A stretch of DNA of 64,000 bases from a virus. The translations under genes and the position numbers were made by a program. Shown piece by piece: positions 1-28,650 of the stretch. The notes beneath the pieces were generated by a model. That model searched no databases. It saw only the letters and a program-made list of their open reading frames with translations, and was not told the DNA's origin. Every line of letters starts with the position of its first letter. The stretch's first letter is position 1. Location of the stretch: the IMG/VR virus record IMGVR_UViG_3300045988_174371, positions 256,001 through 320,000 of that record, one strand, 5' to 3'.

Positions 1-1
1 C

Positions 2-9262: not shown

Positions 9263-9392
9263 TAGGTTTGTCTCCAATAATAGGTTACAGAACAATTGCC
9301 GGGACACTGAGCACTCTATGCGGCATCAGTTCCCCGGCAGGTTAGCGTCTTACTCAGACGTGCTGGAGAGAAGCTAACCTTTACACAAGATA

Positions 9393-9457
9393 CATAGCAG
9401 AAAGGTTGCAACATGTGTTGCATATAGCCCCGTGCTGTATGCAACACTTCTGCTATG
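9393..9457. promoter_or_regulatory. Nested inverted repeats carrying three TGCAACA half-sites
   Basis: Outer repeat catagcagaaaggttgca (9393..9410) pairs with tgcaacacttctgctatg (9440..9457) at 16/18. Inner near-palindrome tgcaaca-tg-tgttgca is at 9407..9422. The element lies between the HD gene stop and the adhesin start. Confidence 0.4.
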
Positions 9458-9500
9458 TGGAATCCACAATAGCTCATCTGAACTAAAATGGAAAGCGAAT

Positions 9501-10175: not shown

Positions 10176-10283
10176 AAGAGCACCACATGCCTTTCAAATA
10201 GATAACGAATGTGACACTAACAACATATCGCATGGTGCTGGTTGGTGTCCAACGCAACACGATAGTTTCTTTCACAGGACGCA

Positions 10284-10324
10284 ATTATGCCCCTGTAAGC
10301 TGTTGGAGCTTACAGGGGCATAAT
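10284..10324 (-). terminator. Stem-loop terminator after the NlpC/P60 gene
   Basis: Perfect 17-bp arms attatgcccctgtaagc / gcttacaggggcataat. Confidence 0.6.
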
Positions 10325-10478
10325 CAATATCGAACCTCGAAAATGTAAATACAGCCGAGCGAGTCACTGCTAGTTGTAATTACAGTTCGGTTTAGCTGAA
10401 GGCGTAACGACCCGAACGCCCCCATGTATTACATGATACCACGTAGGCATATGCCTTGCAACCCATGTGCGGAAGCAC

Positions 10479-11591: not shown

Positions 11592-11597
11592 CTGTCA

Positions 11598-11818
11598 GTG
11601 GCTTACGAAATTAGCTGTCAGGCTCGGCATGTCAGATTCTTGCCTAACTTCAGGTGAAGTCTTCGCCTCTAGAGAGATGCCTGTGATGCGCAAGACAATG
11701 CTTGTCGTACCCGCGCCGCAGGTACACATCTCAGATGTGGTTCTTCCGCCTCTCGGAAGGTAAATTGTTAGCCCCAAGGCTTGAGCTGAACCCCGAGAGC
11801 TCAACCAGCTCAGCTCGT
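11598..11818 (-). promoter_or_regulatory. Candidate ydaO/yuaA-type cyclic-di-AMP riboswitch in the leader of the NlpC/P60 gene
   Basis: Minus-strand leader contains GAGCUCUCGGGGUUCA, UUGGGGCUAAC and the 3' block GCCGAGCCUGACAGCUAAUUUCGUAAGCC. These resemble the conserved ydaO elements GAGC..GGGGACCCA, GGGGUGAAUC and CCCGAA.CCG.CAGCUAACCUCGUAAGCG. The boundaries are approximate. Confidence 0.55.
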
Positions 11819-11836
11819 CACATTTCCAGAAAAGAT

Positions 11837-11881
11837 GAAGCCGACTTCCGTAGGCGAAACTGCCAAACGGAAGTCGGCTTC
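11837..11881 (-). terminator. Stem-loop with U-tract downstream of the CPBP protease gene
   Basis: 14-bp arms gaagccgacttccg / cggaagtcggcttc, followed on the minus strand by ATCTTTTCT. It lies between a candidate promoter and the riboswitch, so it may belong to the leader instead. Confidence 0.5.
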
Positions 11882-11910
11882 ACAAGGTCTTTCACCTTGG
11901 AACCTTAAAA

Positions 11911-11919
11911 ATTGTACCA
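11911..11919 (-). promoter_or_regulatory. Candidate extended -10 element TGGTACAAT
   Basis: Minus strand reads TTGCGC-17 nt-TACAAT with TG one base upstream of the hexamer. The same TGGTACAAT occurs upstream of secA. Confidence 0.35.
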
Positions 11920-11951
11920 CTGAAAGTATAGCGGCGCAACAGCCACCTGCC

Positions 11952-12854
11952 TTACGAAATGAGCAGAGACGCAATCATGCCATTCACCCCGTAGAGCAAA
12001 GCAAGGTTATAAACGGCATGTGCAATCCATGAGGCGTAGATGTTCTGAGTCTTCAGCGCCAGGAAGCACAAAGCAATACCCGAAAGCACATACATGAGCA
12101 CCTGCGGAGCGATAGAGAACAAAGTGCCAGTGAAGATGTCCATAGAGCCAAGCGAAACCGCGAGATTAAACGAAGTGAGCAGAGTGCCTGCAACATGGTA
12201 TGCCATGAACCCCAAGGAAGACAGCAGAACCATAAGAACCTTCGCGCCAGGAATGACACTGTTGCGCACGGCAGACATAAGAACACCACGGAACAGCATT
12301 TCCTCAGCAATGGGCGCGAGAGCTACCGTAAACCCAAGGTAAGCCAAGAGCGTAGGGAGATTCATCACCTGGTAGGGCGCTACAGCCTCCACAGGCGGCT
12401 TTCCACCCGCCAACATCGTAGAACCCACACTGATGACCATAAGCGCCACAGCGCCCAGCAGACCGCTCCACAGGTACCTATAAGACAGCATAGGGTTGAA
12501 GACACCAAACAAGACGGAGCGGATGGAGCCGCCAATTCGAGGTGCCACCAGCTTAGCAACAATCACCGTAACCCCAATGATGGTGGCGCTGTACACCATT
12601 GAGACAATGTGATGATTCGCAACAGGGAGGTTAAGGCTCGCAATTGGGTTGCTAAGAAGCCAGGTAATGCCGTTGCTGACGACAAACACGGCGACAATTG
12701 CCGCCAACCCATAGAAAGCAAGCTTCAGTAGACTTCCAGCGCTACTGGAGGTAGGGGAACTAACCTTTTCAGGGATGACATCGGCGGAGTGTTCTTCCTG
12801 CTCCTGTGCAGGCAAAGTGGAAGGCTCAGCGGCGGCAGTCGTATTTTCAGACAC
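11952..12854 (-). CDS. CPBP-family (CAAX/Abi) intramembrane glutamic protease
   Basis: Multi-TM protein with the three CPBP motifs EEMLFRG, FMAYHV and HAVYNL in order. Confidence 0.8.
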   Translation of the reverse strand: MSENTTAAAEPSTLPAQEQEEHSADVIPEKVSSPTSSSAGSLLKLAFYGLAAIVAVFVVSNGITWLLSNPIASLNLPVANHHIVSMVYSATIIGVTVIVAKLVAPRIGGSIRSVLFGVFNPMLSYRYLWSGLLGAVALMVISVGSTMLAGGKPPVEAVAPYQVMNLPTLLAYLGFTVALAPIAEEMLFRGVLMSAVRNSVIPGAKVLMVLLSSLGFMAYHVAGTLLTSFNLAVSLGSMDIFTGTLFSIAPQVLMYVLSGIALCFLALKTQNIYASWIAHAVYNLALLYGVNGMIASLLIS

Positions 12855-12911
12855 GAATATCTATTCCTTTCAGTAGTAAAGTTTCAAGCAGGGGTGGTAT
12901 AAGTATAACGC

Positions 12912-12958
12912 ATTGGCGGGCTAACTAAAGAGAAGACCTCAATAGTTAGCCCGCCAAT
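12912..12958 (-). terminator. Stem-loop terminator
   Basis: Perfect 15-bp arms attggcgggctaact / agttagcccgccaat, downstream of the gene ending at 12974. Confidence 0.6.
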
Positions 12959-12973
12959 CTCGCTAACTATACA

Positions 12974-14581
12974 CTAGTCAGCGATGCGCTTGTAATAGGT
13001 TCGAGGACGCAAGCCCTGAGCCTTATTCAGACGGCGCGCCTCAGCAATATCTGCCATGTCGCGCTTACGGTACTCAGCGAAAGTCATACCGTACTTGTAG
13101 GTTTCGTATTCGTAATCGTCAGCAAAACGCTTATCGGTACCTGCACGGCGCTTCATATCCTTCGCCTCGGCGTAAGGAAGAAGACCTTCAATGTAGAGCA
13201 AGTAGCCGTCTTCGGTGCCGAAAACAAACTTCGGGTTGCCAGAGTTGCCGGTAAGGATTACGCCAAAGCTATTACCAGATACCTTGAACAGCTCATTGCG
13301 GAGCTTGTCGGAAGTGTCAGCAGACTTGTAGCGCTTGAAGTCACCCTTATTGACCTGCCACACCAGCTGGCTCTGGGTGTTAATGATGGTCAGGTCGCCA
13401 AACTGGGAGCGAATGGCGTGCCACACCTCAGAGTTTGAGGACATGTAGGTGTGAAGGATGCCCATGTCCTTCTCGGGGTTACTTTCGTTCGGGATGGCAA
13501 GGTCGAAACCCTTAGCCTTGTTGCGGTGACGAATGTAACCCTGGATGCCGCGAACGTTGCGGTCAGACTTCATATCGCCGGGCTCGAAACGCCAACCATC
13601 CGCAAACTCGTAAACGTCAGACGGCAGGACAGTGGCAGGGGAAGTAAATACATCGCTCACAGTCCAGTTATGGTCGTAACCATGCTCATCGGAGTAAACG
13701 TTGGGGTTGGTTACGTTCGAACGGGAGAAGCCGTCATCGCGAACAGCCTGAAGCTTAGTACCGTCACCATCCGTCAAGATGATGAGAACATCTTCCTTGC
13801 CCTTACCACGAACGTTACGGGTAGCACGAACCGTAATGTTACCACCCTGAGCATTCTGCTTAGCGGTCGGAAGCAGTCGCACAGACTGGTTCGGCGCAGA
13901 GGAAATGTATGCCGGAACAAAGCCGCCCTCAAAGTCGCCCATAAGAACGACGCCCTCTTCGTATGCCAGACCGTGAATGGGGTCATTATGGGAGCTGATG
14001 CTAATAAACAGGGTTTCATTAGTGCCCGGCGCGGAGCAGATGTCCCAGACATGTTCCGCCTTATACGGGCGACCCTGCGGGTCACGAATATCACGCAGAA
14101 CCCAATCCTTACCAGTGGTGTCCGACTCCCAAACAGCGGTGCGGTTCCACAGGTCACGGAAGTTTGCAGGCTGAGACGGGTCAGTAAGCGGGACGTAGAT
14201 GCGACCTGCCGCATACTGAGCAGTAACAGCCTCAGAGCCAGCAGGCTTGAACTGCATCAGAGAGTTGCCACTCGCATCAAAGCTGGAGAGGTAGACTCGA
14301 CTAGTGCCGTAAGTGTCGCCATTTGCGTTATAGTCGCCGTAGCCGGGGGTTACAACATTGTTCCACGGGGAAACGGTGACGGAGTTAATTGCGGAAAGCG
14401 ACGTGGTGCTGTTGCCTCGCTTGATTGCGTGACCAACAGCGGGGGTTGCTACCTTCTTGACCACGGGGTCCTTTGCGGCGGCAACGAAACGACTGCGCGC
14501 ATTGGCGGCAGGCGCATTGATAGCCATCAGTGCGCCACCAGCGGCGACACCAGCAATCAGAGAACGGCGGGAAATAGACAT
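12974..14581 (-). CDS. Secreted protein of unknown function with a twin-arginine-like signal peptide
   Basis: N-terminus MSISRRSLIAGVAAGGALMAINAPAANA (RR + hydrophobic + AxA). Weak Asp-box-like strings (ESDTTGKDW, TDGDGTKL) hint at a beta-propeller. No catalytic motif recognised. Confidence 0.55.
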   Translation of the reverse strand: MSISRRSLIAGVAAGGALMAINAPAANARSRFVAAAKDPVVKKVATPAVGHAIKRGNSTTSLSAINSVTVSPWNNVVTPGYGDYNANGDTYGTSRVYLSSFDASGNSLMQFKPAGSEAVTAQYAAGRIYVPLTDPSQPANFRDLWNRTAVWESDTTGKDWVLRDIRDPQGRPYKAEHVWDICSAPGTNETLFISISSHNDPIHGLAYEEGVVLMGDFEGGFVPAYISSAPNQSVRLLPTAKQNAQGGNITVRATRNVRGKGKEDVLIILTDGDGTKLQAVRDDGFSRSNVTNPNVYSDEHGYDHNWTVSDVFTSPATVLPSDVYEFADGWRFEPGDMKSDRNVRGIQGYIRHRNKAKGFDLAIPNESNPEKDMGILHTYMSSNSEVWHAIRSQFGDLTIINTQSQLVWQVNKGDFKRYKSADTSDKLRNELFKVSGNSFGVILTGNSGNPKFVFGTEDGYLLYIEGLLPYAEAKDMKRRAGTDKRFADDYEYETYKYGMTFAEYRKRDMADIAEARRLNKAQGLRPRTYYKRIAD

Positions 14582-14808
14582 AGTGTGTACTCCTAAATAG
14601 TTGAAGTTGAAGTGAATAAAAGAAGTGAATAATGCCGACCCGACTACCAGAGGCGAGCCAACGAAATTTAGTGTACCACATGTAAAACGAGTTGCGCAAA
14701 TCGAGTGTTTTAGGCGTAAATATAGAGGGGTTCCTCCGTCCCACTCCCTTATTTAGGAAGCAAGACAGAGGAACCCCTCCGAAAACAGTCACCTTCCAGC
14801 AGGTAGCC

Positions 14809-17052
14809 CTACCACAGCTTCAAATCATACTTTGAAGTCGTTGAGCTGTCGTCATTTACCACAATATTCTCCAAATCTCCAGGCTTGAAAGCGGCTCCAC
14901 CAAAGAAGTACTCGGCACGCGCCGCCTTTAGAAAATACGGGTCAGGATACTCTAGACCGTCAGCATCCTTAAACGTCGCCTCCTTAGGCAGGTGGACAAC
15001 ATCGAGGGTTCCTTCACGATTACCCTGAGGCGCATACGCAAACCTAGTGTCACCGGATTCATCCTTATACGTCATCACAAAATCATATGAGCGTGAAGCA
15101 TCATCACTCTCCCACCAATACTCTTCAAAGCCATTAGCACTGTTTGACAGAGACGAGTCCTGCATATTGCTACGCTTATAGGTCAGAGACTCCTGCCTAG
15201 CTGTAGCACGACCAGCGAAAGCCGCCGCCAAAGTCTCCGCCTGCGAAACATCCGCAGGGTTCACAGTGGTACTAACATTAGGCAGGTAAGAGCGGCGCGA
15301 AACAGCTTGCGCCATATCCGTATAAGAGCCACCCCTAGCGCTCCTACCGCGCAACACTCGCAAGCGAGGAGTTATACCATCCTCTTCAGGGTTGCCGGGC
15401 ACAATGTCATCCAGGGTGGGCTCAAAAGTATCTGAAGCCATCTTATACTTGCCACTCTTCAGCCCCTCAACGATTACGTCAGAGAAGTACGGGTCTGTAG
15501 GGTCACCTTCAATACCTAGGCGGCTCTGCAATGCGACAAGGGCATTGTACTTGTCGTCTTCCTGCTCATTCCGAATGTAGTAATCCATTACACCTGAGAC
15601 GGCGACCGACTGGTACTGCAACTTGCGCAAACTGTTGAGCGCATCCTTCTGAGGGGCGGTGAGCTCCAAATGGGCGTTCTCCGGGTCTTGCGACAAGTCC
15701 TCGTATACATCCCTCAACTGTTCGCGCTCCTGTGCGTCCCACCTGTACGCCCGATACATGACAGCATCCTCTTGAGAGCCATACCTGCGGATAGCCGCCC
15801 TCTGCGTTACGGTATCTGAATAAGGGCTAATGTTTATTGCCACATACCCACCATCATCAATGTACTTCGTGATGGATTTATCTTTTTCGCGAACAACTGA
15901 CCCGGCAAATTGAGAGTCATTCTCTCGTAGAGGGTAATTCATATCCCCGTCTGGAGTCTGAGGGAGGCTGTGCAACAGCTCGCCATCTTCAGGGATGTAA
16001 GGGCTGGCAATACCAAACTCCATGACGTAGCCACTATCCGTCTCATCCCTATCCTGCCCCAACGGGTCAATAGTCTCAAACATTCTAACTCGACCACGCC
16101 CCTGAGGGGTCTCAGCCCAAACCTTCTGAGCGCGCTCAGCTTCCTCCTCATCAAGAGGCTTATCGAAGTTTCGCGTAATCCACGTAAGAGGCGAATACTC
16201 TACAGCCTTCAACTCCTCCGAAACATCATTACCCTCCGCCTCAAGGTCTTCCAGCATATTCCTACGCCACTCCAGAACCTCATCCAAGTCCTTCTCATCC
16301 CACCCAGCATACGCAAGAGCTTCCTTTATTCGCTCCGCATCAGTCTCAGGCTCCCAGTAGCGGTCATCGTCAAGCTCATATACAGGGCGGGCAATGCGCA
16401 TTGAAGAAACATCGAAGTCCAACGCGAACTGACCTGTATCAGGGTCAAGCCAACCCGCACTGTCCCTACCATGCTCGACAGGCTTACCCTGTACGGGCTG
16501 TTCAGTCTCTACCGGCGGCGTGGGCGGCGGGGCAATATCAATATCTACAATATGGAAGTTGTCGATAGCTTCCTCAAGAGTAGCCATTGGAATAGGCTGA
16601 GCAGGCTCTTCTGCCGCGCCAGCGTTATCGGCAGGCGGTGACGGGACATTGAGGTCAATGTCAATAAAGCTTACGTTCCCAATAGTGCCAGCGAGAGTTG
16701 CAGTGGACTCAACCTTCGGAGTTTCCTGTGGGGCTTCAGTGGGCTTATCGGGTTCAACTTCCAATAGGTCTGCTGGGTCACCTGGATAGGGATAATTCTC
16801 AGGGTCGCGGCTGTATAGCGTCCAAGGGGTTATGCCCAATGTCTCAAAAATTTCAGGGCTCAGACCATCCTCACCAAACGTATCTAGCGCCATATCGTAG
16901 TTATGTCGGCTCAAAGCTTCCAGCTCTAGCCAGCTATCTGCTTCAGCAGGAGTATTGAAGTGTGGAGCGTTGGAGGCGAACTTGCACTGATGCTCGGCAC
17001 TGCAAGGAAGCCGCCGGTTATCGTCGTTAATATGGTACTGTCCCTTAGCCAT
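14809..17052 (-). CDS. Member of the H-C-C-H knuckle / C-terminal-Trp family (747 aa, acidic)
   Basis: N-terminus MAKGQYHINDDNRRLPCSAEHQCKFASNAPHFNTPAEADSWLE aligns with the array proteins at 51039..61333. The protein ends ...KYDLKLW. No signal peptide or TM segment. Confidence 0.7.
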   Translation of the reverse strand: MAKGQYHINDDNRRLPCSAEHQCKFASNAPHFNTPAEADSWLELEALSRHNYDMALDTFGEDGLSPEIFETLGITPWTLYSRDPENYPYPGDPADLLEVEPDKPTEAPQETPKVESTATLAGTIGNVSFIDIDLNVPSPPADNAGAAEEPAQPIPMATLEEAIDNFHIVDIDIAPPPTPPVETEQPVQGKPVEHGRDSAGWLDPDTGQFALDFDVSSMRIARPVYELDDDRYWEPETDAERIKEALAYAGWDEKDLDEVLEWRRNMLEDLEAEGNDVSEELKAVEYSPLTWITRNFDKPLDEEEAERAQKVWAETPQGRGRVRMFETIDPLGQDRDETDSGYVMEFGIASPYIPEDGELLHSLPQTPDGDMNYPLRENDSQFAGSVVREKDKSITKYIDDGGYVAINISPYSDTVTQRAAIRRYGSQEDAVMYRAYRWDAQEREQLRDVYEDLSQDPENAHLELTAPQKDALNSLRKLQYQSVAVSGVMDYYIRNEQEDDKYNALVALQSRLGIEGDPTDPYFSDVIVEGLKSGKYKMASDTFEPTLDDIVPGNPEEDGITPRLRVLRGRSARGGSYTDMAQAVSRRSYLPNVSTTVNPADVSQAETLAAAFAGRATARQESLTYKRSNMQDSSLSNSANGFEEYWWESDDASRSYDFVMTYKDESGDTRFAYAPQGNREGTLDVVHLPKEATFKDADGLEYPDPYFLKAARAEYFFGGAAFKPGDLENIVVNDDSSTTSKYDLKLW

Positions 17053-17077
17053 AATCCAACTACTTTCATAACGTGTA

Positions 17078-17134
17078 ATATATAGGTGGTACCAAAACGC
17101 CTACATAGCAAGCCTTCTGGTACCACCTATATAT
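17078..17134. promoter_or_regulatory. 17-bp inverted repeat in the divergent 14809-family / pspA intergenic region
   Basis: atatataggtggtacca (17078..17094) pairs with tggtaccacctatatat (17118..17134). The arms contain the recurrent ATATATAG motif on both strands. Confidence 0.45.
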
Positions 17135-17184
17135 CAATAAGAGCCGAAACACACAGGAAACCCACAGGAGTTATTCGCCCAGCC

Positions 17185-17215
17185 TTGACAGACAGCTCTA
17201 AAAATGTGCTATAGT
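17185..17215 (+). promoter_or_regulatory. Candidate pspA promoter
   Basis: TTGACA (17185..17190), a 19-nt spacer, then TGCTATAGT (extended -10, hexamer at 17210..17215). It lies 65 nt upstream of the ATG. Confidence 0.45.
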
Positions 17216-17280
17216 GTAACTGTAGTGGTCGCAATCTCGCGGGCACACACCAATAACCCAACCTCGAAAGGTAAAACACT

Positions 17281-18000
17281 ATGGCTAAGAAGATTGGCAT
17301 CTTTGACCGCATCTCCCAGCTGGTGAAGGCAAACATCAACGACCTCCTGGACAAGGCAGAAGACCCTCAGAAGATGCTGGCTCAGCTCATCCTTGACTAC
17401 ACCAACAACATCCGCGAAGCAGAAGGCTCTGTTGCTCAGCTCATCGGCACCCTCCGCCTACTGGAGAAGGACTACGCCGAAGACGAGAAGACTGCGAAGG
17501 AGTGGGGCACTAAGGCTCTAGCCGCCTCCAATAAGGCAGACGAGTACCGCGCCGCCGGTGACACCGCCAACGCTGACAAGTTCGACAGGCTCGCCAAGAC
17601 CGCCATCTCCAACCAGCTCGCCGCTGAGAAGAAGATGCAGATTGCTGAGCCTCAGATTACTGCACAGGCCGAGACTGTCAATAAGCTCAAGGCAAGCCTT
17701 GACGTTATGCGCAACAAGCTTGAGCAGGTGAAGCAGAAGAAGGCTGAGCTGGAGGCGCGCCAGAAGACCGCTGAAGCTACCCTGCTCATGGCAGAAACTT
17801 CCAAGAACTTCAACACTATTGACCCCACCTCTGCACTGGCAGGTGTGGAAGAGAAGGTTCGCCGCCTGGAAGCCAAGTCCCTGGGTGAGCAGGAGCTTGC
17901 TGAAAGCCGCCTAGATGACGACTTCGAGGCACTTGCAGACCTTGAGCGTGACCAGGAGCTAGAGGCTCGCCTTGCGGCTCTGAAGGGTAACAAGGCATAG
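17281..18000 (+). CDS. pspA: PspA/IM30 family membrane-stress protein
   Basis: N-terminus GIFDRISQLVKANINDLLDKAEDPQKMLAQLILDY is the PspA/IM30 signature. The remainder is predicted coiled coil. Confidence 0.85.
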   Translation: MAKKIGIFDRISQLVKANINDLLDKAEDPQKMLAQLILDYTNNIREAEGSVAQLIGTLRLLEKDYAEDEKTAKEWGTKALAASNKADEYRAAGDTANADKFDRLAKTAISNQLAAEKKMQIAEPQITAQAETVNKLKASLDVMRNKLEQVKQKKAELEARQKTAEATLLMAETSKNFNTIDPTSALAGVEEKVRRLEAKSLGEQELAESRLDDDFEALADLERDQELEARLAALKGNKA

Positions 18001-18074
18001 CCCTAAGGCAATAACGTCACCCAGCGATGCATTACATGTAGGTGATTTGGCTGTTACCCCGCAGGAGTGACGCA

Positions 18075-18114
18075 GTGAAACCCCCAACCAGTCAAGGTTG
18101 GGGGTTTCACTTTT
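18075..18114 (+). terminator. Rho-independent terminator of pspA
   Basis: 15-bp arms gtgaaacccccaacc / ggttgggggtttcac with a 6-nt loop, followed by TTTT. Confidence 0.8.
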
Positions 18115-18122
18115 ATACGCAG

Positions 18123-18210
18123 AGACGGTGACGGGATTTGAACCCGCATACCCGCGAACGGGTGTAACAGTTTTGCAGACTGCCGCCTAAACCAATTCAG
18201 CCACACCGTC
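18123..18210 (-). tRNA. Atypical 88-nt tRNA: long variable arm (type II shape), anticodon GCA, discriminator U73
   Basis: Hand fold: acceptor GACGGTG/CACCGTC; D-arm GCT-GAATTGGTTTA-GGC; anticodon arm GCAGT-CTGCAAA-ACTGT; 19-nt variable arm with ACCCG-TTCG-CGGGT stem-loop; T-arm GCGGG-TTCAAAT-CCCGT. No encoded CCA. Confidence 0.7.
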
Positions 18211-18284
18211 GTAAGCCCCTCAGGGGCTATGTAAGCGGCTAATGCCAACTTATATGTAAAACTCTATCAGATGGAGGTTGAAAT

Positions 18285-18337
18285 GCGCAAGCGGGGCATA
18301 TAGCCCCTTTGCAGGTGGCGGTATGCCCCGCTTGCGC
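18285..18337 (-). terminator. Long stem-loop after the GH25-LGFP-NlpC/P60 gene
   Basis: 16-bp arms gcgcaagcggggcata / tatgccccgcttgcgc. Confidence 0.6.
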
Positions 18338-18450
18338 GAGTGAAAATGCGTGTAAGTGTGCCCATCTATAAGCTCCGTCCAACGACCCTTACAATATGTC
18401 GCCGGTGCATATGGATGGATAATTACAACACTTACAGTATAGCGTATCTC

Positions 18451-21417
18451 CTACTTGGCTGTAAAGTACCCATCAACAGGCATCCATGAAGTCGGGTGGA
18501 TAAGGGTGCCATTTGACGGGTTGAGAGCAGAAATCATCTTCCCATCGCCCAAGTAGATACCAACATGGTTGTACCCGTTCTGGAACACAATGTCGCCAGG
18601 CTGAGGGGTGGCAGTAGGCTTCAGCTCATTCTTCATTGCAAAAGTGTACGGGGTGAGCTTAATGCCGTGCTGAGCGTAAACCCAGGAGACGAAGCCGGAG
18701 CAGTCCCACAACTTAAAGGTCTTGCCACCCCAAACATAGGTACCGCCTAGACCGCTCTTAGCCGTCGCCACAATCTTATCCTTAACGTTAGCGGACTGAT
18801 TAACTAGTGGCTCAGCGGATAGGCTTGCAGGCACTACAACTGACCCACGTGCGACATTATGCAGAGTACTGAGCTTGCCAGTGCGCGAGAACCACTGAGT
18901 AGTAGCGTTACGGTTACCAACAACGTCGCTCACCGGGAAGCCATGCTTGTCCCAGTGACCTTCACGAGCCCACTTCTTACCTACCTCGCTGTTGAACTGG
19001 ATGACGTGCGTGCGGTTAGCGGAAGCATCCCAGCCAACGATGTAGTAGTCGTCACCATTCTTGAAGTCCTGAGCACGCCCACCATGCACGTAATACTCTT
19101 CACTTACAGGAACGCCGAGTTTATTCTTGCCCACCTCGCCGTAGCTCAGCCACTTGCGCGCAATAGCACTATTGATGTCAATACTATGCACGCCGGTCTG
19201 CTCCGTCCATACCAGCTTAACGGTACGACCATCCTTAGTCAGGAAGTCCTGCGTCACAACACCGTTACCCTGGCTGGTTTCCTCAGAGATAGGTACACCA
19301 ATCTCGTTCTGGTGTTGCTCCCAATAGTGACCGATAGCGCCCGGCATCCAAATGTTATAAACACCAGTCTTCTCAGTCCACACCATCTTATGTCCAGAGC
19401 CGAAGTCCTGATAAGTGTAGCCGTTCTTAGTGACCTCTTCAGTCGTTGGGTACTTGTAGGTGCCTGCTGAGCCACCTGCCTGAACCCAACGGTTACCAAT
19501 CGCGCCGCGAGTCCAGATAGTCTTACCCCGAGCCTGATGAGAATAAACTACCGTATGCCCAGACTCGAAACGCTGTTCCCAGGAGGTAGCACTGGTCTTA
19601 CGCTCATTCTCAACAGGCGCACCATAGTTGCGCCTAGTGTCAGTCAGATACTTCTTAATACCATTGACAGCCTGGAACTTGGAGGTCGGGTCAGAAACAG
19701 AGACCTTGCCGGTAGCCTTATCCAAGGTAAGGCGAGTCACAACACCATTCTCAGTACGGAAGTCCTGGTAAACCGTGTTACCCTGAGCCACCTCATCGGT
19801 GATAGGCGTACCAATCGTGCGCACATCACCCATCTCAAGCCACTTATTCGTAATAGGCTCGAAGTTAGTCATGACGTGGACACCATTCTTGGCTGACCAA
19901 ATCAGTTTCTTGCCGCTATCGAAGTCTTGCTGTGCAGACTCACGGAAGCTGTACTCGTCAGTCAAGGGGTACCCAAAGCGCCCATATTCGTTACCGTTCT
20001 TTACCCAGAGGTCACCGATTGCTCCACGCAGGTAGATAGCACCACCCTTACCATCCTTACGGTGCAGGATACGGTAACTATTCGTGAAGTCCTGAGCCCA
20101 ACCTCCCGGCAACGCAAGCTCACGCCCAATAGGGGTGCCGTAACGCGCCTCATCCTTATGCCAGTAGCTACCGATACCAGAGTAAATGTTGATGTAGCCG
20201 CCGTTATTGAAGTGACGGTCACCATTATCCTTGACGGGAGCGGGGGCATCCTTCGGCTTCTCGGGGGCGGCAGAACGGTCAGTTACCGGCGAAGGGGACA
20301 CCTTGCCATTACTGCCCCACTTAGAAACATAATCGCGGTTGCGCACAAAGTTATCCAGCTCAGCGGCAGTACCGTTGAATACGTTGGAGTCACCGGCGAA
20401 CGGCGCAACAGATGAGAACTGCCAAATGTCGAAGCTGGTAGAGCCGCCAGGCATGAAGCCAGGACCCGTGGAATAGTTTGCAATATGCAACGGCAAACCA
20501 TTGAACTCATTGGTGCCACCCATACAAGTATTCCACCAGTCAGTAGTGGAGTAGATGGTGGGGTAGCGTCCGGTCTTATCCTTATAGGTATTCACAAAGT
20601 CCCACGTCCAAGTCTTCAACTGAGACTGAGACATGCCGAAGCAAGTGTTGCCTAGCGACGGGTAGGGGTTGTATTCCAAGTCAAGCATACCCGGCAAAGT
20701 CTTGCCGTCTGCCGTCCAGCCGCCACCGTTCTTAATGAAAATTTCAGCCTGAGTACGCCCAGAGGACTGCGGCGGCAAGGCGAAGTGGTAGCCGCCAGTG
20801 ACAAGACCTGCGTCACGTGCTCCCGCATAGTGCTTGGAGAACGTAGGGTCTACATAGGTGGTGCCTTCACTGCTCTTCATCCAGGAGAAGCGGCTACCAG
20901 CGGCATACTGCGCTCCCCAGTTGATGTTCGGCTGATGGTTCGAGACATCCTGACCTAGGACACCCCAGGAGGGCTTCCAGCCGTTCCTGGTGGTTAGCGG
21001 GACTACAGCCAGGGTAGGTGCGGTCGCGTTAGAGATAGTTGAGTCCTGTGCGCCAGTAAGGTTCTGCTTGTCAATAGCCTGCGCCTTAGCACCCCAGCCG
21101 ACAGTAGCGCCCCCCTTCTTCGCGCCCTCTTCAGGAGTCTCAGCGAGAGCAACCTGAATGTTCTGGACGGATACAGAGCCCTGCAAGGTAGGCGCGGCTT
21201 CAGTAGTAGCAGTATCACCCTCTAGATGGGTTTCCGCGTCATTCTTAATGGTTTCCGTCTCGGAGACCGTAATAGTTGAACCGGCGGTAAGAGGCTTCTT
21301 CTTCTCATCCGGCTCAGCATTAGCCACAGCCGGAGCTACTGTGCCTGCAATAGTAGCAGTCAGCAGGGCAGAAGCGAGAACGGTCTTCTTAACGTTGGTA
21401 TTGGTCTTCGTAGTCAA
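18451..21417 (-). CDS. Secreted tri-modular cell-wall hydrolase: GH25 muramidase + ~8 LGFP repeats + NlpC/P60 endopeptidase
   Basis: GH25 pattern GQDVSNHQPNINW...FSWMKSSEGTTYVDPTF...GGYHFA...LDLEYNPY...DIWQFSS. Repeats of the form (Y/L/I)G.P...E......Q.F. C-terminal WGGKTFKLWDCSGFVSWVY...GYNHVGIYLGDG. Start moved to the TTG at 21417 (GAAGGA upstream), which gives signal peptide TTKTNTNVKKTVLASALLTATIAGTVAPAVANA. Confidence 0.8.
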   Translation of the reverse strand: MTTKTNTNVKKTVLASALLTATIAGTVAPAVANAEPDEKKKPLTAGSTITVSETETIKNDAETHLEGDTATTEAAPTLQGSVSVQNIQVALAETPEEGAKKGGATVGWGAKAQAIDKQNLTGAQDSTISNATAPTLAVVPLTTRNGWKPSWGVLGQDVSNHQPNINWGAQYAAGSRFSWMKSSEGTTYVDPTFSKHYAGARDAGLVTGGYHFALPPQSSGRTQAEIFIKNGGGWTADGKTLPGMLDLEYNPYPSLGNTCFGMSQSQLKTWTWDFVNTYKDKTGRYPTIYSTTDWWNTCMGGTNEFNGLPLHIANYSTGPGFMPGGSTSFDIWQFSSVAPFAGDSNVFNGTAAELDNFVRNRDYVSKWGSNGKVSPSPVTDRSAAPEKPKDAPAPVKDNGDRHFNNGGYINIYSGIGSYWHKDEARYGTPIGRELALPGGWAQDFTNSYRILHRKDGKGGAIYLRGAIGDLWVKNGNEYGRFGYPLTDEYSFRESAQQDFDSGKKLIWSAKNGVHVMTNFEPITNKWLEMGDVRTIGTPITDEVAQGNTVYQDFRTENGVVTRLTLDKATGKVSVSDPTSKFQAVNGIKKYLTDTRRNYGAPVENERKTSATSWEQRFESGHTVVYSHQARGKTIWTRGAIGNRWVQAGGSAGTYKYPTTEEVTKNGYTYQDFGSGHKMVWTEKTGVYNIWMPGAIGHYWEQHQNEIGVPISEETSQGNGVVTQDFLTKDGRTVKLVWTEQTGVHSIDINSAIARKWLSYGEVGKNKLGVPVSEEYYVHGGRAQDFKNGDDYYIVGWDASANRTHVIQFNSEVGKKWAREGHWDKHGFPVSDVVGNRNATTQWFSRTGKLSTLHNVARGSVVVPASLSAEPLVNQSANVKDKIVATAKSGLGGTYVWGGKTFKLWDCSGFVSWVYAQHGIKLTPYTFAMKNELKPTATPQPGDIVFQNGYNHVGIYLGDGKMISALNPSNGTLIHPTSWMPVDGYFTAK

Positions 21418-21602
21418 AAGTTTGTTTCCTTCAAATGTGTTACTCGGGTCGCATAGCTCTATGAACGTACAACCGGCGGTCAAGTCTAGCGGCTCATTGA
21501 ACCTCACCTGTTTAGGCATACTCGAATAATATAGCGGAACACCCGCCGCATAAGTATACTCAGGTGGCAGATACTCACTTAAGGAAACATTAGGCTTTAG
21601 TG

Positions 21603-21647
21603 CATAAAAATGCTGCTACCCGGCTAATTAAAGCCGGGTAGCAGCAT
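21603..21647 (-). terminator. Rho-independent terminator
   Basis: 15-bp arms atgctgctacccggc / gccgggtagcagcat, followed on the minus strand by TTTTTATGC. Confidence 0.75.
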
Positions 21648-21663
21648 CACAAAGAAGGTCACT

Positions 21664-23178
21664 CTACCAGACCGTCCACCCCTCATAATCTTCTACAGCC
21701 ACCCTATCAGGGTATGCGGTGAAACCAATCGGAGTTTCCGTCTTGCTCGCGCCTGCACGATACAGACCTAGCGCCCTATCTGCGTTAGTGAGAACAGGTG
21801 AGTTGTCTCCCTCGTAAGCCCCCACAGTCTGATAGAGAACCCCATCAGCATTGGTCTCCAAAACTACAGCATACTGCTGGGAACTACCCCCACCGCTGGG
21901 TCTACAAACAATATCACCTGGGGCGACATGAGACATCGCCTCTCTCTCCCCCAAATCCCTGAACATCTCGTCGCGGTAATGGGCGTAACTACTAGTCGCA
22001 AACTTGCGGCGACGCTCCTGCTCAGCTGAAGTCATGTAGCTATGGGAGATAATGTCATTCCACTCCAAAGCCTTAATATCTTCTTTCAAAGACTCGCCGC
22101 GCGTAGGAGACTGAGCAATAACCGCCTGACGGGGAGTTTGCGGCGGCACCTCACCATCAGCCACAATAAGAAGCTGTTCAAGCTCATCTGCCGACTTCCC
22201 TACACCCATAAGGTTAGGGTTGATGACCAGATAACCGTGTTCGGTTGGTTGGGATGAACATGCTTCCAAGAGCTGACGCATCTGCCGTGCATCTCGCGGG
22301 TAGTGCAACCCATTCTCATCAACATCAGTCTCAGCGGTCTGAAGCCACACTTGATACTCTGGGTGGTTCTGAAGCGCATCAGCAACCGCCTGCCGGATAG
22401 CTTCTTGAGTCCCTTCATCTAACTGGTGTGATGCACGAAGCGACTCTGGCAAATGTGAAGCAGTCATAAGTCTCTCAAGGAGTATGCCGGTATGCTTCGC
22501 TAATGCTCTGTTGTGGTTATTTAGGTAATGCGCGTATGCCGCGTTCGCATACCCCAAATACCTCTTCTCACCAATACCTTCAATGCGTTTAAGGTATTGC
22601 GATTTATTTTTTGAAAGCTGTTCATATGAGGGATACTTCTTGTCGGCGGCAATGACCATCGCAGTAGTCTGACTATTCGTCTTTTCCCGCTTATGCGCCT
22701 CAAACATAGCCTTAGCCGTAGCAATATTCGCAGGACTCGAAGACGACAACCCGGCAGGAGTTACCTTAGCCAACCTTGAAATGGATGTCGTCTCCACAAT
22801 CTCCCATAACGAAAGCGGAGTGGTTGAAACATAATTCGGGGCAGAAACAGAGGTAGCGTCAGTATCAGCATACATCTTGTCGGCAGGCTGTTTCTTCGCG
22901 ACCGCATAGTCAATACGCGCGCGGCTGTCAGCGGCATAAGCGGCGGCATCAGTGTCAGGGATAAGGGATACCTGCTCCTTCGTGAGCGTAGAACGCTCAG
23001 CTGGAGCCTTGCCTTCCAGGACAGCCTTAGCAGAAATCTGCTCAGCGGCTTCAATTGCCTCAATCAGAGTGTCGAAGTGCAGAACACCCTCACCATTATT
23101 CAGGTGCCTGTACGCGCAAACATCCCTGCCTCGGCACTCATTAGGCTTATTATTGGGGGAGATGTGGTAGCATTGCAT
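21664..23178 (-). CDS. Member of the H-C-C-H knuckle / C-terminal-Trp family (504 aa)
   Basis: N-terminus MQCYHISPNNKPNECRGRDVCAYRHLNNGEGVLHFDTLIEAIEAAE. The protein ends ...YEGWTVW. AGGAAAA lies upstream of the ATG. Confidence 0.65.
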   Translation of the reverse strand: MQCYHISPNNKPNECRGRDVCAYRHLNNGEGVLHFDTLIEAIEAAEQISAKAVLEGKAPAERSTLTKEQVSLIPDTDAAAYAADSRARIDYAVAKKQPADKMYADTDATSVSAPNYVSTTPLSLWEIVETTSISRLAKVTPAGLSSSSPANIATAKAMFEAHKREKTNSQTTAMVIAADKKYPSYEQLSKNKSQYLKRIEGIGEKRYLGYANAAYAHYLNNHNRALAKHTGILLERLMTASHLPESLRASHQLDEGTQEAIRQAVADALQNHPEYQVWLQTAETDVDENGLHYPRDARQMRQLLEACSSQPTEHGYLVINPNLMGVGKSADELEQLLIVADGEVPPQTPRQAVIAQSPTRGESLKEDIKALEWNDIISHSYMTSAEQERRRKFATSSYAHYRDEMFRDLGEREAMSHVAPGDIVCRPSGGGSSQQYAVVLETNADGVLYQTVGAYEGDNSPVLTNADRALGLYRAGASKTETPIGFTAYPDRVAVEDYEGWTVW

Positions 23179-23353
23179 TCTTCATTTTCCTGCTGTCTTT
23201 TTACGAGATTTAGGGGTCTAGCATTTATCGTGCGTAAAAGCCGCCCAGCACCCCAAGCGCCCCATCGTAGGGGCGGAAGGTAACTGGGCGGCTCCACTAT
23301 GAGGAGGTCAGCCGATGAAGGCTAGAGTATTCACACATACAATATATCAGTGG

Positions 23354-23899
23354 CTATTTCCGCTTCGTGGCAGTAATAGACGGTGCAGGCTTCGGGGTGC
23401 TCATGGGCACAAGCTCACCGTCAGTGGTCATATTCGTGCACCGGGGCGTAATCTTCACCTTCAGCTCACGGTTATCAAAGATAATACCCTGCTCACGCTG
23501 TTCATCAGTGAAAATAAGAGGACACTGACGGTACACCTGCTTAGCCGGGTTGCTGAAGTCCTTGAAAACAGGGACACCTTCAGCATTGATGTGTGAATAC
23601 ACCAAGTTCATTCCTACCTCATCGCCACGCCACTGCCGAAGCTGGTCTTCATCTACGGTCAGGCGATTAGTGATATTGGAGGATAGCTCCACAGTCCTGC
23701 TGGTATGGTCGTTCCACCACAGCCACCCAGCGCCGGAAAGACATGCAAATGCTAAAACTCCGAATGTGGCAATAGTGCGTTCGTGAGCGTCCGTGAAGAG
23801 CTCAAACAGCGTAAAGATGAGGCAGATGCCGCCAATGACGACTAGGGGGATAATCCAGAATAGCGGGTTGATGCTGTCGTGGGCTGTAATGTACATCAT
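23354..23899 (-). CDS. Membrane-anchored hypothetical protein (2 N-terminal TM segments)
   Basis: Hydrophobic segments LFWIIPLVVIGGICLIFTLF and FGVLAFACLSGAGWLWW, followed by a soluble domain. Last gene of a three-gene small-protein cluster. Confidence 0.5.
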   Translation of the reverse strand: MMYITAHDSINPLFWIIPLVVIGGICLIFTLFELFTDAHERTIATFGVLAFACLSGAGWLWWNDHTSRTVELSSNITNRLTVDEDQLRQWRGDEVGMNLVYSHINAEGVPVFKDFSNPAKQVYRQCPLIFTDEQREQGIIFDNRELKVKITPRCTNMTTDGELVPMSTPKPAPSITATKRK

Positions 23900-23946
23900 G
23901 GTATGTAAGTGTGATTTCCTAATAGTTGTTTAGTTTGTTGTGCGGT

Positions 23947-24084
23947 CTACATTACACCAAATAGTCGTAGAGCAATGAGGGTTGCAGAGCTCCAGAAAGC
24001 GGTAGAAATAGCGCCCGCAATGAGGAAGCCTCGCATAAACTCAGTGCCATACTCGGCATCAACGAAAGTGTCAGTCATTTCCAT
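23947..24084 (-). CDS. Small (45-aa) single-TM protein
   Basis: AAGGAG lies 9 nt upstream of the ATG at 24084 (the track start at 24177 was rejected). Sequence MEMTDTFVDAEYGTEFMRGFLIAGAISTAFWSSATLIALRLFGVM. Confidence 0.45.
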   Translation of the reverse strand: MEMTDTFVDAEYGTEFMRGFLIAGAISTAFWSSATLIALRLFGVM

Positions 24085-24107
24085 TATTGGTTTCTCCTTA
24101 TTGGGGT

Positions 24108-24296
24108 TTAGTAGTTGTTCCACGGGCGGTTGTCTACCACCTTCACAGGCAAAGGTCGCTTGTTGCGACTGCCCCATCCAGAGTTGCGAGCCAATGCTCG
24201 GATAGGGTCGGGGCGGTTCAGTGCATTAGCGGTGTTGCGGTCGTATCGTGCGGCAAGAGCGCGTAGGGAATAGAAGACTTCACGAATATACTTCAT
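24108..24296 (-). CDS. Small basic hypothetical protein (62 aa)
   Basis: GAAAGGA upstream of the ATG at 24296. First gene of the small cluster. Confidence 0.4.
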   Translation of the reverse strand: MKYIREVFYSLRALAARYDRNTANALNRPDPIRALARNSGWGSRNKRPLPVKVVDNRPWNNY

Positions 24297-24429
24297 GGTA
24301 GTTCCTTTCAAGTAAGTAATAAATGAAAAATAAATCTGCCAATAAGTGTATCACATACTTAGAAGGTGTGCAAAAGCGCCGCGCATGTGCTAAGACATAC
24401 GCGGCGCTTCACAGCATAGCAATTAGATG

Positions 24430-27756: not shown

Positions 27757-27959
27757 ATAGCCTTTCTCCAATGTGGATGCGTGGTAGTTCTATTAACGCT
27801 AATGTATAACTTTAAGTATCCCTGCCAGATGCTTCACCTGACAGGAAGTGGCTACATAAAGCTGGGACTAGCGATGTAACCTAATATTTATAGCACGACT
27901 ATGCACGATTTGGGAAATCGGGCAGGTTGCATACGAATAACAAGCGTATAAACATACAC

Positions 27960-27988
27960 TTGTTGCCGCTTTGAATATGTGGTATGAT
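27960..27988 (+). promoter_or_regulatory. Candidate promoter of the nucleotidyltransferase gene
   Basis: TTGTTG, a 17-nt spacer, then TGGTATGAT (extended -10, hexamer at 27983..27988). Confidence 0.45.
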
Positions 27989-28036
27989 TGAGCTATTGAT
28001 AAGGAGTTGGCAACGCAATCATATAAGGAGTACGCC

Positions 28037-28636: not shown

Positions 28637-28650
28637 GAGCCCAAGCTGTA

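What the first reader, a model, noticed from the sequence alone, without database searches (positions are those of the whole stretch)
18123..18210. Type-II-shaped tRNA with a cysteine anticodon (GCA) and U73
The 88-nt gene folds by hand into a regular 7/5 cloverleaf with a well-formed 19-nt variable arm: a 5-bp stem ACCCG/CGGGT capped by a UUCG tetraloop. Bacteria normally restrict that feature to tRNA-Leu, Ser and Tyr (and Sec). The 7-nt anticodon loop CUGCAAA places GCA at positions 34-36 with U33 and A37. The discriminator is U. GCA plus U73 are the main CysRS identity elements, whereas the long arm is the main SerRS element. Its D-arm resembles that of the bona fide tRNA-Ser(GCU) at 37493..37584, whose anticodon differs by one base (GCU vs GCA). 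The options are an unusual tRNA-Cys, a Ser-to-Cys-codon mistranslating tRNA, or a decaying tRNA-Ser copy.
Basis: partly seen in the sequence, partly recalled or inferred. Interest (0 to 1): 0.65.

Follow-up and report, generated by a model that had tools for sequence, protein, structure and literature searches.

The report
Long-armed cysteine tRNA on giant phage-like element
This is a real, conserved cysteine tRNA gene with an extra arm that bacteria normally reserve for serine, leucine and tyrosine tRNAs; it sits on a roughly 360 kb phage-like element from the human mouth and belongs to a widespread group of phage tRNAs that I could not find described.

Summary
An 88-nt tRNA gene lies on the minus strand at 18123..18210. 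It has a 7/5 cloverleaf, a GCA anticodon, U73 and a 19-nt variable region that forms a 5-bp UUCG-capped hairpin.

It is not a decaying copy. Six strain variants from independent oral metagenomes keep every stem paired, with two double compensatory changes.

The window is probably not a bacterial chromosome. It looks like part of a ~360 kb circular, phage-like element (IMG/VR lists a 307 kb copy). Its stop-codon usage and PspA point to Rothia as host.

The tRNA belongs to a large family. I found 47 unique 7/5 long-armed tRNA-Cys in viral contigs and about 48 more in metagenomes, mostly in tRNA arrays. One is in the cultured Caulobacter phage CcrColossus.

Family features:
- U73 in 46 of 47.
- Pair 2:71 is variable, unlike the tRNA-Ser genes from the same loci (G2:C71 in 33 of 36, G73 in 30 of 36).
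- The arm geometry is like tRNA-Tyr, not tRNA-Ser.
- The 15:48 tertiary pair covaries.

Most likely it is a working tRNA-Cys charged by the host CysRS. Serine mischarging is disfavoured but not excluded. It is distinct from selC* tRNA-Cys and allo-tRNAs, which have 8/4 or 9/3 folds. I found no paper describing this type.

The parts
18123..18210 (-). Class-II-shaped tRNA-Cys(GCA) gene, 88 nt, with a 7/5 acceptor/T configuration. U73 is at 18123. No CCA is encoded.
   Evidence: ARAGORN; Rfam RF00005 at 54.9 bits; minimum-energy cloverleaf; strain covariation.
18174..18176 (-). Anticodon GCA (positions 34-36) within the loop CUGCAAA (18172..18178).
   Evidence: The loop is invariant in 6 strain variants.
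18148..18166 (-). 19-nt variable region. It has 3 unpaired nt, a 5-bp stem ACCCG/CGGGU with a UUCG loop (18150..18163), then 2 unpaired nt. The last nt, U48, can pair with A15.
   Evidence: The stem is invariant among strains; the loop varies UUCG/UUAG.
18185..18201 (-). D arm GCUGAAUUGGUUUAGGC. It has a 3-bp stem, a G13/A22 mismatch, A14, A15, G18G19 and an extended 20a/20b loop.
   Evidence: This is the same architecture as in the 47 viral family members.
18131..18147 (-). T arm GCGGG-UUCAAAU-CCCGU. Pair 49:65 is G.U, and becomes A-U in two strain variants.
18214..18228 (-). Conserved small hairpin AGCCCC-UGA-GGGGCU, ending 3 nt upstream of the mature 5' end. Its role is unknown; it could be a leader or processing structure.
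   Evidence: Sequence. Strain variants change C to U within the stem and keep G.U pairing.
18074..18111 (.). Long G+C-rich hairpin between the convergent pspA gene and the tRNA. It is probably a bidirectional terminator.
   Evidence: Sequence. Terminator-like partial Rfam matches on both strands. The simple scan did not flag it, because the T run is short.
18285..18337 (.). 15-bp perfect inverted repeat (GCGCAAGCGGGGCAT / ATGCCCCGCTTGCGC) between the upstream GH25-LGFP-NlpC/P60 gene and the tRNA. It is probably that gene's terminator, so the tRNA would need its own start site downstream of it.
   Evidence: Sequence. The only sigma-70-like match lies at 18465..18436, upstream of this repeat.

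Best explanation
The gene encodes a functional cysteine tRNA with a class II (long variable arm) body.

It is carried by a ~360 kb circular, phage-like extrachromosomal element of the human oral microbiome. The host is probably Rothia.

Proposed mechanism (inferred):
1. The transcript is processed and receives CCA from the host enzyme.
2. The host cysteinyl-tRNA synthetase charges it with cysteine, through its two dominant identity elements, U73 and the GCA anticodon.
3. The tRNA then reads UGC and UGU codons of the element's genes alongside the host's own tRNA-Cys.

The extra arm is tolerated because CysRS, a class I enzyme, approaches the tRNA from the side away from the variable region.

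The arm is under selection as part of the folded core: the 3-bp D stem, the extended D loop and the R15:Y48 pair all fit a class II core. What advantage the arm gives is not shown. It could be an inherited scaffold from a Ser/Tyr-type ancestor, or protection from tRNA-targeting host factors.

What is shown: the gene, its fold, its conservation, its family and its genomic setting. What is inferred: charging by CysRS and use in translation.
For: Real tRNA.

Purifying selection on structure: six distinct strain variants differ at 8 sites, and 150 of 150 stem cells remain paired. Changes include 29:41 A-U to G-C, 30:40 G-C to C-G, 2:71 A-U to G.U and 49:65 G.U to A-U.

Family: 47 unique 7/5 long-arm tRNA-Cys occur in IMG/VR contigs.
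- U73 in 46 of 47.
- All stems covary with all four Watson-Crick pair types.
- 15:48 covaries (G:C 36, A:U 5).
- C3:G70 in 27 of 47.

Contrast with tRNA-Ser from the same loci: G73 in 30 of 36, G2:C71 in 33 of 36, A3:U70 in 29 of 36, and arm geometry 1 nt / 5-6 bp / 1 nt. The long-arm Cys family has variable 2:71 (G:C in 12 of 47) and arm geometry 1 / 3-4 / 3, like tRNA-Tyr. Short canonical phage tRNA-Cys genes share the same acceptor statistics.

The window tRNA itself has A2:U71 (G.U in some strains), C3:G70, U73 and A15:U48.

Identity rules (PMC9976931): U73 plus GCA are the major CysRS determinants. G1:C72 and G2:C71 are conserved in bacterial tRNA-Ser, and G73 is a serine determinant in vivo.

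Precedent (PMC5389517): a long-arm tRNA-Cys (selC*) is cysteinylated by CysRS and used in translation.

Element context. About 48 more 7/5 family members occur in metagenomes, mostly in tRNA arrays. One is in the cultured phage CcrColossus, annotated simply as tRNA-Cys.
Against: No expression or aminoacylation data exist for this gene.

No convincing promoter was found between the upstream inverted repeat and the gene.

The window member has a longer arm stem (5 bp) than most of the family. Its D arm is of the tRNA-Ser type, and U73 is tolerated by SerRS in allo-tRNAs (PMC5389517). Some serylation therefore cannot be excluded.

The E. coli CysRS core determinant G15:G48 is absent; this tRNA has A15:U48.

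I could not inspect the rest of the element or the host genome. Whether a canonical tRNA-Cys co-occurs is therefore unknown. There is none in the 84 kb I could see.

The viral and metagenome scans forced the CUGCAAA loop, and the metagenome scan also forced T at position 73. Conservation of those features in those sets is partly by design. U73 in the viral set was not forced.
Confidence: 0.68

Rival explanations
1. Serine-accepting or dual Ser/Cys identity tRNA. SerRS recognises the long arm and charges serine, so UGY codons are read partly as Ser. This would be deliberate or tolerated mistranslation.
For: The arm is long, with a 5-bp stem. The D arm is of the tRNA-Ser type with 20a/20b nucleotides. 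One family member (L093) is 86% identical over 72 nt to a cyanophage tRNA-Ser(UGA). Bodies of 29 of 53 members are closest to tRNA-Ser(UGA). SerRS ignores the anticodon and accepted U73 in allo-tRNAs (PMC5389517).
Against: This tRNA has U73 rather than G73, and A2:U71 rather than the G2:C71 that is near-universal in tRNA-Ser (33 of 36 in the same loci). C2:G71, an anti-determinant for E. coli SerRS, occurs in 12 of 47 family members. Arm geometry is 3/5/2 here and 1/3-4/3 in the family, against 1/5-6/1 for tRNA-Ser (PMC9976931). The acceptor stem is exactly the part that differs from the Ser look-alikes.
Confidence: 0.13
2. A tRNA-shaped RNA that does not act mainly in decoding. It could be a decoy or shield against tRNA-targeting host defences, or a processing or regulatory element of the phage-like element.
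For: Phage arrays in the same loci also carry long-variable-region versions of Asn, Thr, Val, Asp, Ile, Met and Lys tRNAs, often next to a normal-length copy. That pattern suggests the arm itself is selected in mobile elements. Some allo-tRNAs appear not to be used in translation (PMC5389517).
Against: Every feature needed for decoding and charging is conserved: the anticodon loop with U33 and A37, U73, the T loop, G18G19 and R15:Y48. A decoy would not need compensatory maintenance of all four stems together with the identity elements.
Confidence: 0.09
3. A member of the selC*-type tRNA-Cys (tRNA-Sec mimic), used with a dedicated elongation factor or CysRS for recoding.
For: It shares U73, GCA and a long arm with selC* tRNA-Cys (PMC5389517). 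Sec-like long tRNA-Cys genes do exist in metagenomes.
Against: The fold is 7/5, not 8/4. The D arm is normal, with G18G19, rather than a 6-bp stem with a tetraloop. The anticodon stem is 5 bp. No selB- or cysS-like gene occurs in the 84 kb seen. Sec-like forms sit alone, whereas this type sits in tRNA-rich elements.
Confidence: 0.03
4. A decaying or pseudogenised tRNA-Ser duplicate whose anticodon drifted from GCU to GCA.
For: There is one base of difference between the GCU and GCA anticodons. The D loop is similar to that of the tRNA-Ser(GCU) at 37493..37584.
Against: It is 57% identical to that gene and 59% to the element's tRNA-Ser(UGA), no more than to its tRNA-Gly or tRNA-Thr. Substitutions among strains are perfectly pair-preserving. 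The Rfam score is high. It belongs to a large conserved family.
Confidence: 0.02

Closest known systems
selC* tRNA-Cys (Mukai et al. 2017, NAR 45:2776; PMC5389517)
   Same: It is a cysteine tRNA with U73, a GCA anticodon and a long variable arm. That family was shown to be cysteinylated by CysRS and to work in translation.
   Different: selC* tRNAs mimic tRNA-Sec. They have 8-bp acceptor and 4-bp T stems, long D and anticodon stems, and some have UCA anticodons. They occur in anaerobes that have the Sec machinery, sometimes with selB* and cysS*. The window tRNA is 7/5 with an ordinary D arm and a 5-bp anticodon stem, and lies on a phage-like element with many other tRNAs.
allo-tRNAs (same paper; reviewed in PMC7609411)
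   Same: They are long-armed bacterial or phage tRNAs with anticodons outside Ser/Leu/Tyr. U73 occurs among them.
   Different: allo-tRNAs are defined by 8/4 or 9/3 acceptor branches and a Sec-like D arm, and are predicted or shown to accept serine. Here the fold is 7/5 and the acceptor stem lacks the serine elements.
Canonical bacterial and phage tRNA-Cys (class I)
   Same: It shares the GCA anticodon, U73, frequent C3:G70, the A36-A37-A38 loop, and a D arm with a 3-bp stem and G13/A22. Acceptor-stem statistics match short phage tRNA-Cys genes from the same loci.
   Different: It has a 14-21 nt variable region forming a hairpin instead of 4-5 nt, and an extended D loop (20a/20b).
Bacterial tRNA-Ser and tRNA-Tyr (class II)
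   Same: It shares the class II core: a 3-bp D stem, an extended D loop and an extruded arm. Bodies are often closest to tRNA-Ser(UGA). Arm geometry across the family (1 nt / 3-4 bp / 3 nt) equals that of tRNA-Tyr from the same loci.
   Different: The discriminator is U rather than G (Ser) or A (Tyr). There is no conserved G2:C71/A3:U70. The anticodon specifies Cys.
Nematode nev-tRNAs (V-arm tRNAs with Gly/Ile anticodons charged with Leu; recalled from my own knowledge of Hamashima et al. 2012, not checked here)
   Same: They are class II bodies carrying an anticodon of a class I family.
   Different: Those are eukaryotic and keep the identity of the class II synthetase, so they mistranslate. 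Here the acceptor identity elements match the anticodon.

Membership tests
Bacterial tRNA-Cys (functional isoacceptor) | Anticodon GCA in a 7-nt loop with U33 and a purine at 37 | tested here: met
   Loop CUGCAAA; invariant in 6 strain variants.
Bacterial tRNA-Cys (functional isoacceptor) | Discriminator U73, a major CysRS determinant | tested here: met
   U at 18123. U73 in 46 of 47 viral family members, where it was not forced by the search pattern.
Bacterial tRNA-Cys (functional isoacceptor) | Short (4-5 nt) variable loop, i.e. class I architecture | tested here: not met
   The variable region is 19 nt with a 5-bp hairpin.
Bacterial tRNA-Cys (functional isoacceptor) | Charged with cysteine by CysRS | not testable with these tools
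   Needs an aminoacylation assay.
Bacterial tRNA-Ser | Serine anticodon (NGA or GCU) | tested here: not met
   The anticodon is GCA. SerRS itself does not read the anticodon.
Bacterial tRNA-Ser | G73 with G1:C72 and G2:C71 (PMC9976931) | tested here: not met
   U73; G1:C72 is present; 2:71 is A:U or G.U. tRNA-Ser from the same loci have G73 in 30 of 36 and G2:C71 in 33 of 36.
Bacterial tRNA-Ser | Long variable arm of the Ser type (about 1 unpaired nt, 5-7 bp, about 1 unpaired nt) | tested here: inconclusive
   The stem is 5 bp but is flanked by 3 and 2 unpaired nt. The element's own tRNA-Ser(GCU) is 1/6/1. Three-dimensional orientation cannot be computed here.
selC* tRNA-Cys | U73 plus a GCA or UCA anticodon and a long variable arm | tested here: met
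selC* tRNA-Cys | tRNA-Sec-like body: 8-bp acceptor with a 4-bp T stem, and elongated D and anticodon stems | tested here: not met
   The fold is 7/5; an eighth pair would be U8/U65. The D stem is 3 bp with a G18G19 loop and the anticodon stem is 5 bp. Sec-like long tRNA-Cys seen in metagenomes look clearly different.
selC* tRNA-Cys | Genome encodes the Sec machinery, or adjacent selB*/cysS* | tested here: inconclusive
   None in the 84 kb examined. The rest of the element and the host were not seen.
allo-tRNA | 12-bp acceptor branch arranged 8/4 or 9/3 | tested here: not met
   7/5.
   The window tRNA shows all of these features. The family comprises 47 unique viral members, about 48 unique metagenomic members and phage CcrColossus. 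The window member is atypical in having 3 unpaired nt 5' of the arm and a 5-bp stem.

The most novel reading that the evidence does not exclude
The long arm is not a relic. It is a selected device of large phages and giant elements. They would encode arm-bearing versions of normally short tRNAs (Cys here; Asn, Thr, Val, Asp, Ile, Met and Lys elsewhere). These would keep their cognate charging but escape a host or competitor factor that recognises class I tRNA shape, such as tRNA-cleaving or tRNA-modifying defence toxins. Alternatively, for this Cys tRNA, the arm gives dual CysRS/SerRS identity, so that the element translates UGY ambiguously.
Probability: 0.15. Interest if true: 0.85.

Novelty: new variant of a known kind. 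Interest (0 to 1): 0.6.

Why it matters
Textbook tRNA biology restricts long variable arms in bacteria to Leu, Ser, Tyr and Sec. The known exceptions, selC* tRNA-Cys and allo-tRNAs, have irregular 8/4 or 9/3 folds.

This tRNA is an ordinary 7/5 tRNA-Cys with a class II body. It is under clear structural selection and is common in large phage genomes and giant elements.

If CysRS charges it, as the identity elements predict, three things follow:
- Anticodon and discriminator identity can be moved onto a class II scaffold in nature.
- It offers a natural, possibly orthogonal scaffold for engineering.
- It raises the question of why mobile elements keep arm-bearing duplicates next to normal tRNAs.

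The cultured Caulobacter phage CcrColossus carries a member, so the question can be tested directly.

Tried and rejected
1. The single genome-contig scan went on PspA. It did show that Micrococcaceae carry an initiator tRNA, not tRNA-Cys, downstream of pspA.

2. I first assumed the organism was Rothia dentocariosa and rejected this. Its PspA is only 61% identical. No synteny exists beyond pspA.

3. Inocle elements were rejected as the identity of the replicon. They have 24-32% GC and a Streptococcus host, against 52% GC here.

4. BLAST of the window tRNA against cultured phages found nothing close.

5. Covariance model R1, built from the strain variants, could not separate long-arm Cys from Ser and Leu tRNAs by score. 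Family statistics were therefore computed from ARAGORN-anchored segments in Python.

6. Pfam and PHROGs gave no hits for most large proteins, so phage hallmark genes were not identified.

7. My attempt to classify Sec-like versus standard long tRNA-Cys by D-stem length failed. It was replaced by a D-loop motif test, which is only approximate.

8. Searches for literature on a 7/5 long-arm tRNA-Cys found nothing.

9. Whether a canonical tRNA-Cys exists elsewhere on the element or in the host could not be resolved with the available look-ups.

Full report
THE OBSERVATION. ARAGORN finds five tRNA genes in the window, all on the minus strand. One is a tRNA-Cys(gca) at 18122..18210. Rfam's tRNA model matches 18123..18210 at 54.9 bits, against a gathering score of 29, and places the extra 16-17 nt as an insertion in the variable region. 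It has a 7-bp acceptor stem, a 3-bp D stem, a 5-bp anticodon stem with loop CUGCAAA, a variable region UAC-ACCCG-UUCG-CGGGU-AU, a 5-bp T stem and discriminator U. No CCA is encoded.

IS IT A LIVE GENE? The neighbouring PspA protein occurs, identical or nearly so, on many independent human oral metagenome contigs. Those loci give six distinct versions of the tRNA. They differ at eight positions. Every change inside a helix preserves pairing:
- 29:41 A-U to G-C;
- 30:40 G-C to C-G;
- 2:71 A-U to G.U;
- 49:65 G.U to A-U.

The remaining differences fall at position 26, in the UUCG loop and in the T loop. On the named cloverleaf 150 of 150 cells pair. Sliding the 3' partners by one to three columns drops this to 38-58%. 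The gene is only 57% identical to the tRNA-Ser(GCU) at 37493..37584. It is 59% identical to a tRNA-Ser(UGA) found just beyond the window. Neither value exceeds the identity to the element's tRNA-Gly or tRNA-Thr. A decaying serine-tRNA copy is therefore excluded.

WHERE IT SITS. I expected a bacterial chromosome and did not find one. Most large ORFs in the window have no Pfam or PHROG match. Nearly all lie on one strand. The few annotated genes are:
- a phage-type dNMP kinase, whose best relatives are Microbacterium and Arthrobacter phages;
- a C5 methylase, a TnpB-like protein, sortases and adhesins;
- a GH25-LGFP-NlpC/P60 hydrolase and a SecA homologue.

Ten kilobases beyond each end lie a MazG-like pyrophosphatase, a PIF1/RecD-type helicase, metallophosphatases and three more tRNAs.

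Contigs carrying this locus in dozens of assemblies cluster at 345-380 kb and never exceed 1 Mb. Within equally long contigs the pspA gene sits at very different offsets, for example about 237, 261, 273, 326 and 347 kb of about 360 kb. That is what circularly permuted assemblies of one ~360 kb circular replicon look like. IMG/VR holds a 306,861-bp copy with the identical tRNA.

The nearest named PspA proteins are from Rothia, at 61-64% identity, including R. dentocariosa. The element almost never uses TGA as a stop codon. The only two cases in the window are the TnpB gene and a frameshifted fragment. The Rothia loci fetched here show the same bias (TAA 77, TAG 49, TGA 5), whereas Micrococcus and Kocuria loci use TGA in 47 of 67 genes.

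I conclude that the window is part of a giant phage-like element whose host is probably Rothia. It is not one of the described Inocles, which have 24-32% GC and Streptococcus hosts. The host genus is an inference.

THE FAMILY. I scanned IMG/VR for a Cys anticodon loop placed 22-32 nt before a T loop. ARAGORN finds 83-93-nt tRNA-Cys(GCA) genes in 53 of those loci, giving 47 unique sequences. Their features are:
- All are 7/5 with an ordinary D arm.
- 46 of 47 have U73, which the pattern did not require.
- Every helix covaries with all four Watson-Crick pair types.
- The 15:48 tertiary pair covaries (G:C 36, A:U 5). The window tRNA has A15:U48.
- The variable region is 14-21 nt, usually one unpaired nt, a 3-4 bp stem with a GNRA-type loop, then three unpaired nt.

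Eleven loci also carry a normal 71-76-nt tRNA-Cys close by.

It gave 66 loci with long tRNA-Cys genes. About 48 unique genes are of this 7/5 type, and 25 of them lie in loci with five or more tRNAs. About 16 are clearly tRNA-Sec-like, and 13 of those stand alone; these are the selC* kind.

One member is in a cultured phage. Caulobacter phage CcrColossus carries an 87-nt gene with U73 and an encoded CCA, deposited simply as tRNA-Cys. The genome paper does not remark on it.

WHICH SYNTHETASE? From the same loci and with the same parsing I compared 36 tRNA-Ser, 17 tRNA-Tyr, 39 tRNA-Leu and 12 short tRNA-Cys genes.
- tRNA-Ser has G73 (30 of 36), G2:C71 (33 of 36), A3:U70 (29 of 36) and arms of 1 nt / 5-6 bp / 1 nt.
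- The long-arm Cys family has U73 and a freely varying 2:71. That pair is U:A in 15, G:C in 12, C:G in 12 and A:U in 6.
- C:G at 2:71 is an anti-determinant for E. coli SerRS.
- C3:G70 occurs in 27 of 47 members.
- Its acceptor statistics match those of the short tRNA-Cys genes.
- Its arm geometry is that of tRNA-Tyr.

The published identity rules state three things (PMC9976931). U73 and GCA are the major cysteine determinants. G1:C72 and G2:C71 are conserved in bacterial tRNA-Ser. G73 is a serine determinant in vivo. A long-arm tRNA-Cys, selC*, is known to be cysteinylated and used in translation (PMC5389517). It is established knowledge, not tested here, that class I synthetases bind with the variable region facing the solvent.

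The bodies do look Ser-like. One member is 86% identical over 72 nt to a cyanophage tRNA-Ser(UGA), yet it differs exactly in the acceptor stem, discriminator and anticodon. In a crude nearest-body test, 29 of 53 members are closest to tRNA-Ser(UGA) and 10 to short tRNA-Cys.

My reading is a class II scaffold carrying cysteine identity, charged by CysRS. Serylation of the window member cannot be excluded without an assay, because its arm stem is 5 bp and its D arm is Ser-like.

COMPARISON WITH KNOWN SYSTEMS. The closest described entities are selC* tRNA-Cys and allo-tRNAs (PMC5389517, PMC7609411). Both are defined by 8/4 or 9/3 acceptor branches and tRNA-Sec-like D arms, which this tRNA lacks. 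It therefore works like a selC* tRNA-Cys, in being a long-armed Cys acceptor, but is not a member of that family. Eight literature searches found no description of a 7/5 long-armed tRNA-Cys. Absence from the searchable library is not proof of absence.

VERDICT. It is not a bacterium's strange tRNA-Cys. It is one member of a widespread family of class-II-shaped cysteine tRNAs carried by mobile elements, and I found no description of that family. Here it sits on a giant oral phage-like element. I rate it a new variant of a known kind, with interest 0.6.

Noticed in passing
window 1..64000 (whole window); loci L001, L002, L203-L213, L217, L219: The window seems to be part of a ~360 kb circular, phage-like extrachromosomal element that is common in human oral metagenomes. 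Contigs cluster at 345-380 kb. The same gene sits at widely different offsets in equally long contigs. Most large proteins lack Pfam or PHROG hits. IMG/VR lists a 306,861-bp copy. At 52% GC with actinobacterial affinities, it is not one of the described Inocles (24-32% GC, Streptococcus host).
   Followed up: partly
window-wide; Rothia loci L123-L130, L141, L146, L163, L168: TGA is almost never used as a stop codon in the element. There are 2 of 34 cases in the window, and neither looks like a genuine native stop. The Rothia chromosomal loci show the same bias (TAA 77, TAG 49, TGA 5). Micrococcus and Kocuria loci use TGA in 47 of 67 genes. This supports Rothia as host. The near-absence of TGA stops in Rothia is itself unexplained.
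   Followed up: partly
viral loci L003-L122 (e.g. L048, L104, L083, L014); cultured phages L222 (RcXuper), L223 (CcrColossus), L225 (Psa21): Phage tRNA arrays also hold 38 unique tRNAs of normally short-armed families with 10-24 nt variable regions. The families are Asn, Asp, Thr-UGU, Val-UAC, Ile-UAU, Met, Lys, Pro, Glu, Gly, Trp and Arg. Each keeps its isotype-typical discriminator, and many sit beside a normal-length copy. Cultured examples are RcXuper tRNA-Lys(CUU) at 88 nt, Psa21 tRNA-Asn at 88 nt and CcrColossus tRNA-Met at 87 nt.
   Followed up: partly
window 33406..36909 (-): A SecA homologue carries an insertion of about 330 aa directly after the Walker A motif (GTGEGK). The insertion ends in HN followed by T, which looks like an intein.
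   Followed up: no
window 51039..61333 (-): Four tandem paralogues of an unknown protein family of about 800-850 aa share 33-47% identity. The first copy is split into 374-aa and 476-aa ORFs by a frameshift, whereas homologues in other strains are single proteins of about 840 aa.
   Followed up: partly
window 11585..11783 (-): A c-di-AMP (ydaO-type) riboswitch scores 52.6 bits and lies upstream of an NlpC/P60 hydrolase gene (10479..11591). The C-terminal domain of that hydrolase is 60% identical to the end of the GH25-LGFP-NlpC/P60 protein next to the tRNA.
   Followed up: no
loci L123-L181 (Rothia, Micrococcus, Kocuria, Citricoccus): In Micrococcaceae chromosomes the pspA gene is followed, convergently, by the initiator tRNA-fMet gene. 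In the element the same position is occupied by the long-armed tRNA-Cys.
   Followed up: partly
window 38719..42315 (-): A C5 cytosine methylase gene lies next to a TnpB-like (Cas12f1-like TNB domain) gene. The latter is one of only two ORFs in the window that end in TGA, which suggests a foreign insertion.
   Followed up: no
metagenome loci L258, L269, L312, L317, L318, L309, L291, L292, L337, L313: These loci carry tRNA-Sec-like long tRNA-Cys(GCA) genes of 90-96 nt, with a long D stem and tetraloop. They resemble selC* tRNA-Cys and nearly always stand alone in their locus. They are clearly distinct from the 7/5 type.
   Followed up: partly
L217 3298..3585: Just beyond the window's right end the element has a cluster of three tRNA genes: Gln(UUG), Gln(CUG) and Ser(UGA). 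That makes at least 8 tRNA genes in the 84 kb examined. Only the tRNA-Ser(GCU) encodes its CCA.
   Followed up: partly
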